Source of the DNA: a virus
Taxonomy: Duplodnaviria > Heunggongvirae > Uroviricota > Caudoviricetes
Length of the DNA stretch: 64,000 nucleotides
Direction: 5' to 3' (one strand)
Virus record (IMG/VR): IMGVR_UViG_2541047680_000004
Under the pieces are notes generated by a model that was given only the letters and a program-made list of their open reading frames with translations, was not told where the DNA came from and did not search any database. Below are positions 36,979-44,100 of this stretch, piece by piece (positions within the stretch are counted from its first letter, which is position 1; each line of letters opens with the position of its first letter). The position numbers were made by a program, and so were the translations under genes.

Positions 36979-37257
36979 ATGAGTGAAAAGAAAACAACTT
37001 ACTGTCAGGTAGCATTGTCTGATAAGGCCAATGACAAACTTGGAAAGTTTCAAGTGAAACTAAAAGAAAAAAATATCAAAATGTCTAAGGCTGAAGTCAT
37101 AAATACCATTCTGGAACAATTGACAATGGCCGACTTTGACAAGGTTATATCTTCTGTCGGGGCTTCCGCTAAGACTCGTGAGAAAATCATGCGTATCTAT
37201 GAGAACTCTAATATGACAAAGGAAGATCTCGAAACGCTATTAAGCAGATTAAAATAA
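36979..37257 (+). CDS. hypothetical small protein
   Basis: 92-aa ORF tightly following the helicase gene. Confidence 0.35.
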   Translation: MSEKKTTYCQVALSDKANDKLGKFQVKLKEKNIKMSKAEVINTILEQLTMADFDKVISSVGASAKTREKIMRIYENSNMTKEDLETLLSRLK

Positions 37258-37325: not shown

Positions 37326-37748
37326 ATGAAATACTCGCTTCTCCCTCTACTAACGTTACCAGTGTTGATGCTTACCGCGTGCCAATCACGCCCAATATCA
37401 ATCCATGACGCCAAACCAGCACCGCAGGCCAAAGTGTTCAAGTATCAAAGCGCAGCGCCAGCTACGTTGGTGGTAATGAGAGACACAGGTTTTGTAGGAG
37501 CTGGATGTGATGCTTCCATTTTCATCAACGGCGAAACTGTCGCAAAACTGGCTACAGGCGAAAAAGCGACTTTCCATTTAAATGCCGGAGAATTAATTGT
37601 GGGTGCATCTCTTGAAGGTGCAGGTTTATGTGCTCTAAACCCCGCTCGTCAAGAGCGAGAAACGACTCTGAAGAATGGAGACACAAAAGCGTTCAGGGTG
37701 TTCACCAGCAATTCTGGTGACATCGACATTCTGCCAACAACTCTGTGA
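37326..37748 (+). CDS. lipoprotein
   Basis: signal peptide MKYSLLPLLTLPVLMLTAC with lipobox LTAC; start set at MKYSL. Confidence 0.5.
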   Translation: MKYSLLPLLTLPVLMLTACQSRPISIHDAKPAPQAKVFKYQSAAPATLVVMRDTGFVGAGCDASIFINGETVAKLATGEKATFHLNAGELIVGASLEGAGLCALNPARQERETTLKNGDTKAFRVFTSNSGDIDILPTTL

Positions 37749-37752
37749 TGAC

Positions 37753-38277
37753 ATGACAACCAAAGATATTACCTACGGTATCCAAGCTGAACTCTGGCCG
37801 CGAGATTACACTAACGTTGAAAAACTACTGATGTTCTGGCGCAGAGAACAAATTCCTGTAAGGGTCACTCTCGAAGATGGCCAGGCGTTTTGCATGTACG
37901 TTTATGGCCTCATGCCATCTCGTAACAAAGTTGACCTTTGCCCAGCCCCTTTTGACAAAGAAAATCGTATAAGGCTCCCACTTGAACGCATTAGTACAAT
38001 TGAATCAGGTGTGGTTGACAGTATCGCTCACGATTTCAAAGGTCGACTAACAGTTCACCCTGATTATGTCGATAATCGGCCATCACGCCGCGATTTTTTT
38101 GCAATTTGCAACCAAGCCTACAAAGCAAACAAATCTATAAGGGTGTACATGGCGGATGGCCGTGAAATTGAGGGGGTGTCAGCAGGCGCAGATGCTTGTC
38201 AGGTTACACTACGTGTCGAGAACGGTAGAAAAATAGTTGTTTTGTTCGATTGGGTTGAACGAATTTTGCCTTTTTGA
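37753..38277 (+). CDS. hypothetical protein
   Basis: 174 aa from MTTKDITYG; no motif recognised. Confidence 0.45.
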   Translation: MTTKDITYGIQAELWPRDYTNVEKLLMFWRREQIPVRVTLEDGQAFCMYVYGLMPSRNKVDLCPAPFDKENRIRLPLERISTIESGVVDSIAHDFKGRLTVHPDYVDNRPSRRDFFAICNQAYKANKSIRVYMADGREIEGVSAGADACQVTLRVENGRKIVVLFDWVERILPF

Positions 38278-38280
38278 GTT

Positions 38281-38589
38281 ATGAAATCGATATTGTTACC
38301 ACCATTATTTTTACTTTGCTCAGTTGCGGCAAATGCAATGGACTATAAGCCTGTCATTCAGTCGCTGATGAATGACGTGTGCTCAACGTCTCAGAATGTA
38401 TCAGTTTGCATGTATCAATTTTCGGCAGCCGTAAAAGCAGGAAAAGCGATAGGTGAGAATGTGGAACTGTGTAAGAAAGTGGCAAATGAAGAACGGGCAA
38501 TGTTGGATTGCGAATCTAGCGAGTCATCGGCACAGTTCGTTGATGCGCTATTTGACACCAATCGTAAGGCTGTAGAGTCTGTTCAATAA
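38281..38589 (+). CDS. small secreted protein
   Basis: signal peptide MKSILLPPLFLLCSVAANA; several Cys in mature part. Confidence 0.45.
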   Translation: MKSILLPPLFLLCSVAANAMDYKPVIQSLMNDVCSTSQNVSVCMYQFSAAVKAGKAIGENVELCKKVANEERAMLDCESSESSAQFVDALFDTNRKAVESVQ

Positions 38590-38604
38590 ATCTATAAGGT
38601 TAAT

Positions 38605-38631
38605 AACCGGCTAAGTCCGGTTATTATTTTT
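38605..38631 (+). terminator. rho-independent terminator
   Basis: stem AACCGG/CCGGTT with loop CTAAGT followed by TTATTATTTTT. Confidence 0.6.
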
Positions 38632-38778
38632 CACATCACTTCTTTATATCTATAAATCAAATAATCTAAATATATAAGGTCGAAAGCCGGAATCGATTAT
38701 TTATTTAGGGAACACCTTCGACGATCTCGCTTTTATTTCTAGGACTTTCATCCCTGCAAAAAAAACTTAAAAAAACAC

Positions 38779-38806
38779 TTGCAATCTTTTTTCGCGTATC
38801 GATAAT
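38779..38806 (+). promoter_or_regulatory. sigma70-like promoter of low-GC moron
   Basis: TTGCAA, 16-nt spacer, GATAAT; about 65 nt upstream of the 38872 start. Confidence 0.45.
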
Positions 38807-38871
38807 TGAACTCGTCGAAAGCGAAGACGCTAACGACAATAAATTTTAAATTTACATAAGGAAAAATTATC

Positions 38872-39522
38872 ATGGCTAACATTATCATTTCTAAAAAGTC
38901 CATCATTGAAGCTGCATCTATTGTATCCGACGAGCTGCGCGAAAAAGCAGATCTGGCAACTCAAACATATAACGAACATTATAAAAATGGTACGCACACT
39001 AAAGCAGACAAAGCAAATATGCAAGCTGCGACCACTAAACTTGCTTACTTCATCAACAACGTCGTAAACGCAGTAGAAGACGAAAAATTATGCTCTGTTT
39101 TCTACTATGCGATTAAAGCAAGCAAACAAGCGCCAGAAGTATTTTTCCGTGATGCAATGACTAATAGTTATTCTCTGGAAAAACTGGTTTATCTGGTTAA
39201 ATCAATTAAATCTGGTAAATGCGTTTATTCCGTCGCTGATATGTCTGGATCTCGTGTATTCGCTTTAATCGATATGATTAACGACGAGATCGACACGTTC
39301 ACTAATGGCGCTGTTTTCGATTTAATGAATGAAGCTAAAAAAGCGTGTGAAATTAAATTGGACGCTGGCTATACTCAAGCCAACCAGTTGATCAATCTTT
39401 GCGAACGTCTTGGACTTGTTGAAAAAGTCAAAGGAGCTGGGAGTGCGAAAGCTGGTACTCAGCAATATCGCTTTATTAAAAATGATTTCTACAATTATTT
39501 AGCTGATGCTTTCAAAGCGTAA
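38872..39522 (+). CDS. hypothetical protein (low-GC moron gene 1)
   Basis: 216-aa ORF in AT-rich segment with own promoter and terminators. Confidence 0.5.
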   Translation: MANIIISKKSIIEAASIVSDELREKADLATQTYNEHYKNGTHTKADKANMQAATTKLAYFINNVVNAVEDEKLCSVFYYAIKASKQAPEVFFRDAMTNSYSLEKLVYLVKSIKSGKCVYSVADMSGSRVFALIDMINDEIDTFTNGAVFDLMNEAKKACEIKLDAGYTQANQLINLCERLGLVEKVKGAGSAKAGTQQYRFIKNDFYNYLADAFKA

Positions 39523-39533
39523 TTAATGGAATC

Positions 39534-39554
39534 AAGCGCCCACTATGGGCGCTT
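39534..39554 (+). other. hairpin (copy 1 of GCGCCC-ACTAT-GGGCGC) between moron genes
   Basis: identical stem-loop recurs at 40030-40054 where it carries a T-run; here only TTT follows. Confidence 0.45.
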
Positions 39555-39570
39555 TAAAGGAGCTTTAAAG

Positions 39571-39774
39571 ATGGTCAGCTATGACAAGATCCGCGCGGAA
39601 TATCGCGCAAAGTATCGCGCTTATAAACTGGAATTAATCGATGATTTGATCGCGCAACGCGACCAATTAAATTTTACGTTTTCTGATTTGCTTAACAACA
39701 AGCGAGATTGCAAGCGTAAACGTGAATACTTACGTTTAAGCGCATTAATCGGAAAACTTCAAAATTCTATTTAA
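39571..39774 (+). CDS. hypothetical small basic protein (moron gene 2)
   Basis: start at MVSYDK with RBS AAGGAG; Arg/Lys-rich. Confidence 0.35.
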   Translation: MVSYDKIRAEYRAKYRAYKLELIDDLIAQRDQLNFTFSDLLNNKRDCKRKREYLRLSALIGKLQNSI

Positions 39775-39793
39775 TTTTTTAAGGAGCTTAATC

Positions 39794-40024
39794 ATGTTTG
39801 TTCTTATCGCTGGCGTTAACGTCCATAATGAATATTATGTTAATCGCATCGCTGGGATCGCTGGTTACGCTGGGCGCGCAGTCGAGCTTATAGATGAAAC
39901 GACGCGCAAAATTGACTTATTGAGCGACCAGGAGCGAAAAAAAGCAGACGTGAACGACGCTGATATATTTTTAATGTTAAAAGCGTTTGTAGAAATGGGA
40001 TTTGAAATCAGTCTACATAAATAA
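39794..40024 (+). CDS. hypothetical small protein (moron gene 3)
   Basis: 76-aa ORF with RBS-like AAGGAG upstream. Confidence 0.4.
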   Translation: MFVLIAGVNVHNEYYVNRIAGIAGYAGRAVELIDETTRKIDLLSDQERKKADVNDADIFLMLKAFVEMGFEISLHK

Positions 40025-40029
40025 AATCG

Positions 40030-40054
40030 AGCGCCCACTATGGGCGCTTTTTTC
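40030..40054 (+). terminator. rho-independent terminator
   Basis: stem GCGCCC/GGGCGC, loop ACTAT, then TTTTTT. Confidence 0.65.
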
Positions 40055-40075
40055 GTTTCCAATACTCCCACCAAA

Positions 40076-40101
40076 ACGCGCCAATGATGGCGCGTTTTTT
40101 A
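40076..40101 (+). terminator. second tandem terminator (bidirectional shape)
   Basis: stem ACGCGCCA/TGGCGCGT, loop ATGA, T-run after and A-run before. Confidence 0.6.
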
Positions 40102-40472
40102 TTGTCTTTAACTCACTCCAACAACATAAAAATAAGCGCCAAAATAACGCCATAGACGCGCTTTTATATCCTTACCAGTACATACCCATTACTTAACACA
40201 TTAACGCGCTTAAAACGCGTTATATTGCGCTATAGAGTATGGTTAATCATTGGCTTTTAGTCTTGCTTTATGATCCGCGTTTATTTGTCGGCGCGGATCG
40301 GCATTTTGTTTTGTTCCGTATCCGCTCGCGTATTATGTGCGCGTGATTTTTCACATAATCACACCACTTAATCACGTATGTGATTATGCTACGAAAGAAA
40401 TCTGGATGTCTCAGGCGACGAAAGTCATCATAATTTTCCCCGCTCACCTGTCCGACAACCGCTGGTTGGATT

Positions 40473-40480: not shown

Positions 40481-40594
40481 TTCCCGATGTTTTTTCTACA
40501 CAAAGGCGAATGCAGCCGTTTCCCGAAAAAATCCTGGCCGTTCCCCGTCGGCTCATGAATACGTTCCTCGCCGTTTCTGAAAATTTCCCTGCGG
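40481..40594. repeat. iteron cluster 1 (direct repeats of GCCGTTTCCCGAAAA-like units)
   Basis: units at about 40514, 40536, 40570 with partial copies at 40488, 40561, 40584; 22-33 bp phasing; ORF-free convergent intergenic region. Confidence 0.6.
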
Positions 40595-40596
40595 CA

Positions 40597-40604
40597 GCTG
40601 GTGG
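40597..40604 (+). other. Chi sequence GCTGGTGG
   Basis: exact octamer. Confidence 0.5.
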
Positions 40605-40640
40605 CTATAGAGAAAGGGCCGTTTCTGGCCCTCTTCTCAG

Positions 40641-43644: not shown

Positions 43645-43777
43645 GCCGTTCCTGAACCGGCATCGAGCCTTTTCCCGAAATCCACACAGGCAACTCGACC
43701 GTTTCCCTGAAAACCTCCAGCCGTTCCCCGAAGGCAACCCAGCCTTTTCTGTAGCGGGATGCAACCTTTTCCCTGTA
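43645..43777. repeat. iteron cluster 2 (six direct repeats, about 22-bp phasing)
   Basis: units at 43645, 43666, 43697, 43719, 43741, 43763 (e.g. GACCGTTTCCCTGAAAA); extra copy near 43470; same family as cluster 1. Confidence 0.65.
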
Positions 43778-44100
43778 TGGACCGAAGGCTGACCGTAGGG
43801 GTTTTACGGGGGATAAAATCAGGAGTTGAATAAATACGAAAAAGGAGGCGACACCCCTCCTTCCCTCCCCACTTATACATACCTGGCTTCTTCGCTATAC
43901 ATGTTGTGTTTTCTTCGTGTTTTATCTGTCTCAACCTCTCTATAGGCGTTAATGCTCACTCCTTCCAGAACCTTCTATACGGCGACTATTTCTGTTGGTG
44001 AATTGGGTGTGTTGTTCTCTCTGTCGGTGTATGTGGTTTCGTTCGTTTTGCGGTGGTTCTTCTATGGGGTGTTCTCGTCGTTTTGGTGATTGTTCTTCTC

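What the first reader, a model, noticed from the sequence alone, without database searches (positions are those of the whole stretch)
38600..40110. Autonomous low-GC three-gene moron with its own promoter, duplicated hairpin and tandem terminators
This segment is markedly more AT-rich than its flanks. It has a good sigma70-like promoter (TTGCAA-16-GATAAT), three small genes of unknown function, the same GCGCCC-ACTAT-GGGCGC hairpin after gene 1 and after gene 3, and two consecutive terminators. Self-contained morons in prophages often carry toxin-antitoxin, abortive-infection or exclusion functions.
Basis: partly seen in the sequence, partly recalled or inferred. Interest (0 to 1): 0.6.

Follow-up and report, generated by a model that had tools for sequence, protein, structure and literature searches.

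The report
Silent core operon of SSU5 phage-plasmids
The AT-rich three-gene unit is real, but it is an ancient, lineage-wide part of SSU5-type phage-plasmids that stays switched off in the plasmid state; it encodes an uncharacterised winged-helix protein followed by small genes that are swapped in and out at a repeated hairpin.

Summary
The TTGCAA-16-GATAAT promoter is unremarkable as a pattern match but is conserved across genera.

The window is an SSU5-type phage-plasmid, 99.9% identical to E. coli plasmid pAVS0225-A, not an integrated prophage. Gene 1 (216 aa, helical N-terminal domain plus C-terminal winged helix, an orphan family) is a core gene. It sits at the same syntenic position in all ~90 loci examined, down to ~30% identity, and always at ~38% GC. 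Only genes 2 and 3 are accessory: they occur singly, together, duplicated or not at all, always at a conserved hairpin-plus-RBS junction.

In the one available lysogen transcriptome (E. coli LF82/Cyrano), the homologs of genes 1 and 3 sit at the detection floor and track the endolysin, so the unit is not lysogen-expressed. Toxin-antitoxin, abortive-infection and exclusion roles find no support.

A rigid three-block element upstream of the promoter is more conserved than the proteins and remains unexplained. The most likely reading is a tightly silenced lytic- or infection-phase regulator operon with swappable cargo. Interest is moderate.

The parts
38601..38631 (+). Terminator of the preceding operon (TAATAACCGG-CTAAGT-CCGGTTATTA followed by a T-run); it isolates the cassette from upstream transcription
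   Evidence: Terminator scan. Folds at -12.6 kcal/mol, z = -4.4. Conserved in Cyrano, SSU5 and pJN2-26. In LF82 the upstream genes are transcribed while g1 is not.
38670..38679 (+). Upstream block B1 (ATATATAAGG) of the conserved three-block element
   Evidence: Invariant in the alignments. The B1-to-B2 spacing is identical in all loci.
38699..38721 (+). Upstream block B2 (ATTTATTTAGGGAACACCTTCGA)
   Evidence: Invariant core AAC-A-CTT, recognisable down to about 30% g1 identity. A single copy in the whole ~112-kb plasmid.
38733..38745 (+). Upstream block B3 (TTATTTCTAGGAC)
   Evidence: Conserved, with a fixed 26-nt offset from B2 in all loci. No consensus RNA structure spans B1-B3.
38779..38806 (+). 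Sigma-70-type promoter TTGCAA-16-GATAAT preceded by an A-tract. The -10 lies within TCGATAATT, which resembles the H-NS high-affinity motif tCGATAAATT.
   Evidence: H-NS motif from PMC2094087. Local clustering of motif-like sites.
38872..39522 (+). g1: 216-aa orphan protein (phrog_1513) with a helical N-terminal part (more variable over residues 1-75) and a C-terminal winged-helix domain; the core gene of the unit
39535..39555 (+). Hairpin copy 1 (stem GCGCCC/GGGCGC, loop ACTAT) followed by only three T: a probable leaky terminator or 3' mRNA stabiliser, and the junction for cargo genes
39553..39565 (+). RBS junction repeat TTTAAAGGAGCTT, copy 1, ahead of g2
   Evidence: Direct repeat D12. Cyrano's loss of g2 lies exactly between the two copies. 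The same junction separates the g3 paralogs in L026 and L031.
39571..39774 (+). g2: 67-aa basic (pI 9.7), apparently helical accessory protein (phrog_6145). The 'MIT/CorA metal ion transporter' label is an annotation error.
   Evidence: Present in roughly half of the loci, and as a diverged homolog in the 62%-identity lineage. dN/dS 0.068.
39777..39789 (+). RBS junction repeat TTTTAAGGAGCTT, copy 2, ahead of g3
39794..40024 (+). g3: 76-aa acidic accessory protein (phrog_1585), modelled as a ferredoxin/ACT-like beta-alpha-beta-beta-alpha-alpha-beta fold (only one of five models is confident)
40030..40053 (+). Hairpin copy 2 followed by T6: the first of the tandem intrinsic terminators
40073..40100 (+). 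Second intrinsic terminator (AAAACGCGCC-AATGA-GGCGCGTTTTTT). The A-run and T-run on either side should make it bidirectional towards the convergent minus-strand genes.
   Evidence: The stem is conserved and the loop varies across lineages. In the 62%-identity lineage a third copy of the hairpin takes its place.

Best explanation
This is a core, ancient, stand-alone transcription unit of SSU5-type phage-plasmids. It is kept off while the element lives as a plasmid and is transcribed together with lytic-cycle genes.

Shown:
- A sigma-70-type promoter, conserved across genera, drives g1.
- g1 is an orphan 216-aa protein with a helical N-terminal part and a C-terminal winged helix.
- A GC-rich hairpin lies directly after g1. 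Its stem is invariant across the enterobacterial lineage.
- The hairpin together with a fixed Shine-Dalgarno sequence forms a repeated junction. At this junction small accessory genes (g2, g3 and g3 paralogs) are present, absent or duplicated.
- The unit ends in two strong terminators that face convergent genes.
- In LF82 lysogens the unit is transcriptionally silent.

Inferred:
- g1 is a nucleic-acid-binding regulator that acts on infection or induction. Its recognition helix and lysine-rich wing are nearly invariant.
- Hairpin 1 is a leaky terminator or 3' stabiliser that gives more g1 product than cargo product.
- Identical hairpin/RBS junctions let related elements exchange cargo by homologous recombination or slippage.
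- Silencing in the plasmid state comes from H-NS-type binding to the persistently AT-rich promoter region (the -10 is embedded in an H-NS-like nucleation motif), from a dedicated factor bound to the rigid B1-B2-B3 element, or from both. Candidates for that factor are g1 itself and the always-adjacent FljA-like regulator.
For: Identity and context: the segment is 99.9% identical to pAVS0225-A. It is found on plasmids only, in 240 of 5426 complete E. coli genomes, in 815 PLSDB plasmids across Klebsiella, Escherichia, Enterobacter, Yersinia, Salmonella and Citrobacter, and in SSU5-type phages.

Core status: the order FljA-like gene, g1, hairpin, convergent 160-aa gene holds in all 89 loci and in loci at about 30% g1 identity. 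Low GC holds in 84 of 84 loci. dN/dS for g1 is 0.066 at dS of about 1.

Promoter and upstream element: conserved sequence and spacing. The blocks are unique within the plasmid and are not a structured RNA.

g1 fold: pLDDT 80.8; winged-helix matches only.

Cargo modularity: the content after g1 is g2, g3, g2+g3, g3'+g3 or nothing. The deletion and duplication end points fall at the hairpin/RBS repeat.

Silence in lysogeny: CYRAN_113 reads 5.9 and CYRAN_112 reads 5.0, against a Cyrano median of 9.8, repressor 96 and RepA 133. The g1 profile matches the endolysin profile with r = 0.98 (PMC9928086). Cyrano's -35 and -10 hexamers are identical to the window's.

H-NS plausibility: the published motif is tCGATAAATT (PMC2094087). 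Eleven of 92 motif-like sites cluster in 38513-39647. There is a precedent in phage-plasmid P1, whose lytic gene ref is repressed by C1 and bound by H-NS (PMC4713147).
Against: Expression evidence comes from one strain and one study, and Cyrano lacks g2.

No data show the unit being switched on during induction. The only rise is about 8-fold at 6 h in macrophages, in parallel with virion genes.

The clustering of H-NS-like sites is confounded by AT-richness, and window-wide enrichment is not significant.

The factor that binds B1-B3 is unknown.

g1 is retained intact in Y. pestis pMT1/pFra plasmids, which would also fit a plasmid-state role.
Confidence: 0.55

Rival explanations
1. Classic lysogenic-conversion moron: a recently acquired cassette expressed from the resident element that provides toxin-antitoxin stabilisation, abortive infection or superinfection exclusion.
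For: It has its own promoter and terminators and a deviant GC content. SSU5-type elements do carry several expressed toxin-antitoxin pairs elsewhere (PMC9928086). g2 and g3 vary between relatives.
Against: g1 is universal and syntenic, and low GC is ancient. The g1 and g3 homologs are at the detection floor in lysogens and are not among the 13 Cyrano morons. There are no PADLOC, Pfam or NCBIfam matches. g1, g2 and g3 occur independently of one another, so no pair is obligate.
Confidence: 0.08
2. Early anti-defence or host-takeover locus with an autoregulator, working like anti-CRISPR (acr)/aca operons. A strong promoter fires on DNA entry. g2 and g3 are fast-evolving, swappable inhibitors of host systems. 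g1 is the helix-turn-helix-type autorepressor that shuts the promoter down afterwards, which would explain the silence in lysogens.
For: The layout fits: a strong conserved promoter, one conserved winged-helix protein, and variable small orphan proteins in one insulated operon. The unit is silent in the established lysogen. g3 evolves faster (dN/dS 0.29) and has divergent alleles. A conserved upstream element could be the autoregulator's operator.
Against: g1 stands alone, without any cargo, in about 10 enterobacterial loci and in the 3 distant loci examined, so it is more than a servant of the cargo. At 216 aa it is far larger than known Aca proteins (from my own knowledge). The gene order (regulator first) is the reverse of typical acr-aca operons. 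An autorepressor normally shows measurable steady-state mRNA, whereas g1 is at the floor. There is no homology to any known anti-defence protein.
Confidence: 0.2
3. g1 is not a transcription factor. It is a protein- or RNA-binding winged-helix adaptor for DNA replication, partition or packaging of the element, and the conserved upstream blocks are a cis site for that machinery.
Against: Plasmid-maintenance genes of Cyrano (RepA, ParA) are clearly expressed in lysogens, whereas g1 is not. B1-B3 is tied at a short, limited distance (40-61 nt) to the g1 promoter in every lineage, which is typical of a promoter-proximal regulatory site.
Confidence: 0.12
4. The duplicated palindrome GCGCCC-N5-GGGCGC is chiefly a double-stranded DNA operator for a dimeric protein such as g1, bracketing the cargo, rather than a terminator.
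For: It is a perfect 6-N5-6 palindrome whose half-site centres are 11 bp apart. The stem is invariant at dS of about 1 while the loop varies and flips orientation. It is found only in this cassette.
Against: In lineages at about 30% identity the g1 recognition helix is conserved, but the terminator is an unrelated hairpin. The last copy always carries a T-run and stands in tandem with a second terminator, or replaces it. The stem of the second terminator is equally conserved, so stem conservation is not specific to this hairpin.
Confidence: 0.05

Closest known systems
Phage morons (Hendrix-type: a promoter-gene-terminator unit of deviant composition inserted between conserved phage genes)
   Same: Own sigma-70-type promoter, own terminators, lower GC than the surrounding genome, small genes of unknown function. 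g2 and g3 show the presence/absence pattern expected of added DNA.
   Different: g1 and the promoter-terminator frame are present in every relative and are ancient. The unit is not transcribed in the lysogen in the only dataset available. Accessory genes are added inside an existing unit at a reused hairpin/RBS junction and do not bring their own promoter.
Bacteriophage P1 ref gene (a stand-alone lytic-cycle gene of a phage-plasmid, repressed by C1 and bound by host H-NS; PMC4713147)
   Same: A phage-plasmid context; a single insulated unit that is silent in lysogens and belongs to the lytic programme; a CGATAA-type H-NS motif in the 5' regulatory region.
   Different: No sequence or fold relationship: Ref is an HNH endonuclease, g1 is a winged-helix protein. 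H-NS binding here is only inferred. No operator for the element's master repressor was identified. This unit also carries swappable downstream cargo.
Anti-CRISPR (acr)/aca operons and similar early anti-defence loci
   Same: A strong promoter, one conserved helix-turn-helix-type protein and variable small orphan proteins within one short operon.
   Different: The regulator comes first and is much larger. It also exists without any cargo. There is no homology to known Acr or Aca families, and no functional evidence.
Integron gene-cassette arrays
   Same: An array of promoterless small genes, each bounded by a repeated palindromic element downstream of a common promoter, with content that varies between relatives.
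   Different: No adjacent integrase. The repeat is a 17-nt perfect hairpin that also works as a terminator, not a 57-141-nt attC site. The end points suggest homologous recombination or slippage at the hairpin/RBS repeat, not site-specific recombination.

Membership tests
Phage moron | Flanked by its own promoter and terminator | tested here: met
   Conserved TTGCAA-16-GATAAT promoter. There is a terminator upstream at 38601-38626 and tandem terminators at 40030-40100.
Phage moron | Nucleotide composition different from the neighbouring phage genes | tested here: met
   37.7% against 46.6% GC, lowest 0.24% of windows; the same in 84 of 84 related loci.
Phage moron | Extra DNA: present in some phages and absent, between the same neighbours, in close relatives | tested here: not met
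   The promoter, g1, hairpin and terminator are present in all 89 + 3 loci examined. The criterion is met only for the internal genes g2 and g3.
Phage moron | Expressed from the repressed prophage (lysogenic conversion) | tested here: not met
   CYRAN_113 and CYRAN_112 are at the detection floor in LF82 lysogens and are not among the authors' morons (PMC9928086). This rests on a single strain and study.
Type II toxin-antitoxin system | Two co-dependent adjacent genes (toxin plus cognate antidote) that are inherited together | tested here: not met
   g1 occurs alone in about 10 enterobacterial loci and in the 3 distant loci examined. g2 and g3 each occur without the other.
Type II toxin-antitoxin system | Homology to known toxin or antitoxin folds or families | tested here: not met
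   No significant Pfam, NCBIfam, PADLOC or PDB sequence hit. The predicted folds are a generic winged helix and a generic ferredoxin-like fold.
Type II toxin-antitoxin system | Constitutive expression in the plasmid-carrying cell | tested here: not met
   Silent in LF82, whereas the genuine toxin-antitoxin pairs of Cyrano (KacT, HicAB, RelE) read 89-592 units.
Known anti-phage defence systems (PADLOC) | A match to a defence-system protein model | tested here: not met
   No families matched for g1, g2, g3 or their neighbours at E <= 0.1.
Winged-helix DNA-binding transcription regulators (MarR/ArsR/Fur/PadR-like) | Winged helix-turn-helix fold | tested here: met
Winged-helix DNA-binding transcription regulators (MarR/ArsR/Fur/PadR-like) | Sequence membership in one of these families | tested here: not met
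   No Pfam or NCBIfam hit. The deep profile search finds only 23 representatives, all from the same orphan family.
Winged-helix DNA-binding transcription regulators (MarR/ArsR/Fur/PadR-like) | Specific DNA binding | not testable with these tools
   This needs EMSA, ChIP or a co-folding prediction with DNA.
Integron cassette array | An adjacent integron integrase and attI site | tested here: not met
   No recombinase lies in the locus. In the near-identical plasmid pAVS0225-A the nearest tyrosine recombinase is about 50 kb away.
Integron cassette array | attC-type recombination sites (imperfect palindromes of roughly 57-141 nt) | tested here: not met
   The repeat is a 17-nt perfect hairpin within a 21-34-nt repeat. 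The attC size range is from my own knowledge.
MIT/CorA metal ion transporter (the database label of g2) | CorA domain with two C-terminal transmembrane helices, about 300 aa | tested here: not met
   g2 is 67 aa, basic (pI 9.7) and has no long hydrophobic stretch in its sequence. It has no Pfam or NCBIfam CorA hit. The label is carried only by PHROG 6145 and the SSU5 record.

The most novel reading that the evidence does not exclude
The unit could be a previously undescribed control module of SSU5-type phage-plasmids, made of three parts.
(i) A rigid, deeply conserved three-block enhancer- or operator-like DNA element. It may be read by g1, by the neighbouring FljA-like protein or by H-NS.
(ii) An orphan winged-helix protein that helps decide between the plasmid state and lytic growth.
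(iii) An integrase-free way of exchanging small cassettes, in which a terminator hairpin fused to a fixed ribosome-binding site serves as a portable recombination joint for small effector genes.
Probability: 0.15. Interest if true: 0.65.

Novelty: new variant of a known kind. Interest (0 to 1): 0.4.

Why it matters
SSU5-type phage-plasmids are common in clinical Enterobacteriaceae. g1 is found in 815 PLSDB plasmids and in about 4% of complete E. coli genomes. Relatives include S. Typhi pHCM2-type and Y. pestis pMT1-type plasmids, and members carry resistance genes: the near-identical pAVS0225-A carries blaCTX-M-15 and dfrA51.

Their lysis-lysogeny and early-gene control is essentially uncharacterised. 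This work points to three concrete experimental handles:
- a core gene that is tightly silenced and encodes a probable regulator;
- an upstream control element that is more conserved than the proteins;
- a defined slot where small accessory genes are exchanged.

It also corrects two things. The 'moron' label applies only to g2 and g3, not to the unit as a whole. The propagated 'CorA/MIT transporter' annotation of g2 is wrong.

Tried and rejected
Homology:
- Pfam, NCBIfam, PADLOC and PDB sequence searches for all three proteins gave nothing significant.
- A deep profile search of 1.84 billion representatives returned only the same small family.

Fold searches:
- The afdb50 library was unavailable.

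RNA:
- Rfam gave nothing above threshold.
- The idea that the B1-B3 element is a structured RNA is rejected: consensus energy -0.75 kcal/mol and no covariation.

Shared operators:
- I tested whether the upstream blocks are operators shared with other promoters of the element. This is rejected: each is a single copy across the window plus the rest of pAVS0225-A. The first script for this failed.

Hairpin:
- The idea that the hairpin is a widespread repeat or a generic phage terminator is rejected. Exact copies occur only in this cassette of SSU5-type phages.
- The idea that g1 binds the hairpin is disfavoured, because distant lineages keep the recognition helix but use an unrelated terminator.

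Other checks:
- By eye, no CTGT-N8-ACAG (LexA/SOS box) motif is visible in the promoter. This was not searched formally.
- The distance from B3 to the promoter is 40-61 nt and shows no clear helical periodicity.

Literature:
- No paper in the searchable library mentions these genes or their accessions.
- Two phage-plasmid papers were not relevant.
- I could not map g1 to old Y. pestis YPMT1 locus tags, so I could not mine Yersinia transcriptomes.
Full report
**What was checked.**
- The segment 38600-40110 is 37.7% GC, against 46.6% for the window and 43-46% for the flanks. It lies in the lowest 0.24% of windows of that size.
- There are three plus-strand genes with good ribosome-binding sites: g1 38872-39522 (216 aa), g2 39571-39774 (67 aa) and g3 39794-40024 (76 aa).
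- The 21-nt sequence AGCGCCCACTATGGGCGCTTT occurs exactly twice, after g1 and after g3, with none expected by chance.
- The second copy carries a T6 tail and is followed by a second strong stem-loop with a T-run. Together they fold at -32.2 kcal/mol, z = -5.65.
- The promoter TTGCAA-16-GATAAT exists at 38779-38806. As a pattern match it is unremarkable: 9 of 12 positions, with 12 such sites found in the region against 9.3 expected. Its credibility comes from conservation, described below.

**What the window is.** The cassette is 99.9% identical to E. coli plasmid pAVS0225-A (111.7 kb). It occurs in 240 of 5426 complete E. coli genomes, always on plasmids of about 95-120 kb and never on a chromosome. 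It also matches Salmonella phage SSU5, Escherichia phage Cyrano and Klebsiella phage-plasmids. The neighbours are capsid, portal, terminase, ParB-like, helicase, metG and S24-peptidase genes. The element is therefore an SSU5-type phage-plasmid, not an integrated prophage.

**The proteins.** All three fall in PHROG families (1513, 6145, 1585). None has a significant Pfam, NCBIfam, PADLOC or PDB sequence match.
- Each family is confined to ~100-113 kb contigs of Enterobacteriaceae. A profile search of 1.84 billion representative proteins returned only 23 members of the g1 family.
- In g1, residues 77-216 are almost invariant, including the putative recognition helix YTQANQLINLCERLG and a lysine-rich wing. 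Residues 1-75 vary more.
- g2 is a basic (pI 9.7) 67-residue protein that appears helical from its sequence. The 'MIT/CorA transporter' label it carries in SSU5 and PHROGs has no support.
- All three are under purifying selection, with median dN/dS of 0.066, 0.068 and 0.29. Synonymous divergence between the E. coli, Salmonella and Klebsiella versions is about 1.0-1.3 per site.

**Comparative anatomy.** I fetched 89 related loci and three very distant ones.
- In every case g1 lies between an FljA-like regulator gene (Pfam Flag1_repress) and a conserved convergent 160-aa gene. A 102-aa secreted-protein gene is sometimes present ahead of g1.
- Throughout the enterobacterial lineage g1 is followed by the GCGCCC-N5-GGGCGC hairpin.
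- What lies between that hairpin and the last copy varies: g2 alone, g3 alone, g2+g3, two g3 paralogs, or nothing.
- Where g1 is only 62% identical, the cargo is a diverged g2 homolog, and the second terminator is replaced by a third copy of the hairpin.
- Where g1 is only about 30% identical, it stands alone with an unrelated terminator hairpin.
- The repeating unit is [hairpin - TTTAAGGAGCTTAATC - ATG...]. Cyrano's lack of g2 maps exactly between the two copies of the RBS repeat. In L026 and L031 the same junction separates two g3 paralogs.
- The hairpin stem is invariant. The loop is not, and each loop variant occurs in both orientations (ACTAT/ATAGT, ATTAT/ATAAT, ACAAT/ATTGT, ATCAT/ATGAT). 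This points to a structural role for the stem rather than a sequence-specific loop.
- Exact copies of the hairpin exist only in this cassette of SSU5-type phages.
- Low GC is a fixed property of the locus. In 84 of 84 loci the cassette (mean 38.0%) is below both flanks (46.0% and 48.3%), including the divergent lineage. It is therefore not a mark of recent acquisition.

**Regulatory region.** Phylogenetic footprinting of 80 distinct upstream sequences shows several invariant features:
- the TTG of the -35, a 16-nt spacer and the -10;
- a short leader motif (TCGAAAGC ... CTAACGA);
- three upstream blocks: B1 ATATATAAGG, B2 ATTTATTnAGGnAACACCTTC and B3 TTATTTCTAnG.

The internal spacing of these blocks is identical in every locus, including the lineages at about 30% identity. 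The distance from B3 to the promoter drifts between 40 and 61 nt. The blocks are single-copy across the ~112-kb plasmid sequence searched (the window plus the rest of pAVS0225-A), so they are not operators of a master repressor used elsewhere. They show no consensus RNA structure or covariation. The element is thus more conserved than the protein it precedes, and what binds it is unknown.

The -10 lies inside TCGATAATT, close to the published H-NS high-affinity motif tCGATAAATT (PMC2094087). Eleven of the window's 92 motif-like sites fall within 38513-39647, but this is confounded by AT-richness.

- Cyrano's homologs of g1 (CYRAN_113) and g3 (CYRAN_112) are not on the list.
- In the supplementary table they read 5.9 and 5.0 normalised units, where the floor is 4.99. 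Cyrano's median is 9.8, the repressor reads 96, RepA 133, HicA 294 and CYRAN_43 reads 7084.
- Across five conditions the g1 profile is almost superimposable on the endolysin profile (r = 0.98, mean difference 0.2 log2 units). It resembles the terminase, holin and capsid genes, and sits 4-10 log2 units below the lysogeny-expressed genes.
- The genes immediately upstream (CYRAN_114 to CYRAN_118) are transcribed. The upstream terminator therefore works, and the g1 promoter is off.
- Cyrano's -35 and -10 hexamers are identical to the window's, so the inference carries over. It still rests on one strain, and Cyrano lacks g2.

**Interpretation.** The unit has the layout of a moron but fails two defining tests: variable presence among relatives, and expression in the lysogen. 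Only g2 and g3 behave as added DNA.

A toxin-antitoxin reading is excluded by the independent occurrence of the three genes and by their silence in the plasmid state. Defence and exclusion roles have no support.

The best-supported reading is a core operon that is tightly silenced and belongs to the lytic or infection phase. Its constant product is a winged-helix, probably nucleic-acid-binding, protein. The hairpin after g1 probably acts as a leaky terminator or mRNA stabiliser (it has only three T in the window) and serves as a portable junction for exchanging small cargo genes. Silencing plausibly involves H-NS acting on the persistently AT-rich promoter, a dedicated factor bound to B1-B3, or both.

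P1 ref offers a precedent in another phage-plasmid: a stand-alone lytic gene that is repressed by C1 and bound by H-NS (PMC4713147).

Rivals that remain open:
- an acr/aca-like early anti-defence locus in which g1 is the autoregulator;
- a role for g1 as a replication, partition or packaging adaptor. Its retention in Y. pestis pMT1/pFra keeps a plasmid-state role possible.

**Verdict.** The feature is real, conserved and uncharacterised. It is a variant of the moron/accessory-operon theme, not a new category. Interest is moderate (0.4). What lifts it is the unusually rigid and deeply conserved upstream element, together with the hairpin/RBS cassette junction.

Noticed in passing
window 40495-40630 and 43660-43780 (+ strand): There are two clusters of GCCGTTTCCC-like direct repeats, at 40515, 40537, 40570, 40618 and at 43667, 43698, 43720, 43764. 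They lie within segments of about 80 nt that align with each other. The first cluster is in the 540-nt non-coding gap before the convergent 160-aa gene and is conserved across SSU5-type loci, including distant ones. They look like iterons or operators; their function is unknown.
   Followed up: partly
window 38128-38142 and 38585-38599: A 15-nt direct repeat, AA(C/T)AAATCTATAAGG, occurs inside the 3' part of the FljA-like gene and again at the stop codon of the 102-aa signal-peptide gene (38281-38589). That gene is present in only some related loci, so the repeat may be a scar of its insertion.
   Followed up: partly
window 37675-38277 (+): The gene next to the cassette encodes a homolog of FljA, the repressor of phase-1 flagellin (Pfam PF03614, E = 2.5e-84), with a weak Hfq-like signal. 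It lies beside g1 in every lineage examined and is transcribed in LF82 lysogens, rising in macrophages. A phage-plasmid-borne flagellin repressor may be worth studying in its own right.
   Followed up: partly
window 39571-39774; SSU5_119; phrog_6145: The label 'MIT family metal ion transporter / CorA' attached to g2 in the SSU5 record and in PHROGs is an annotation error. The protein has 67 residues, is basic, has no long hydrophobic stretch in its sequence and has no CorA domain.
   Followed up: yes
hairpins at window 39536-39552 and 40031-40047, and their counterparts in L001-L089: The 5-nt loop of the hairpin is found in both orientations for every sequence variant (ACTAT/ATAGT, ATTAT/ATAAT, ACAAT/ATTGT, ATCAT/ATGAT), at either copy, in many loci. 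This indicates recurrent inversion of the loop between the perfectly palindromic stem arms.
   Followed up: partly
L090 and L091 (pAVS0225-A, outside the window): The plasmid that is 99.9% identical over the cassette carries ISEcp1-blaCTX-M-15 and dfrA51. It also carries its own dnaE, recA, nrdAB, DNA ligase and four tRNA genes. I did not check whether the source of the window carries the resistance genes.
   Followed up: no
L006 and L095 (Y. pestis pMT1/pFra): An intact g1 (about 86% identical) and a divergent g3 allele, with the same hairpins, are retained in 62 Yersinia plasmids in PLSDB.
   Followed up: partly
window 36979-37257 (+): The 92-aa gene just after the helicase is the homolog of CYRAN_117. 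That gene is one of the Cyrano genes genuinely expressed in lysogeny (12-fold above background in PMC9928086), so it fits the moron definition better than the reported cassette does.
   Followed up: no
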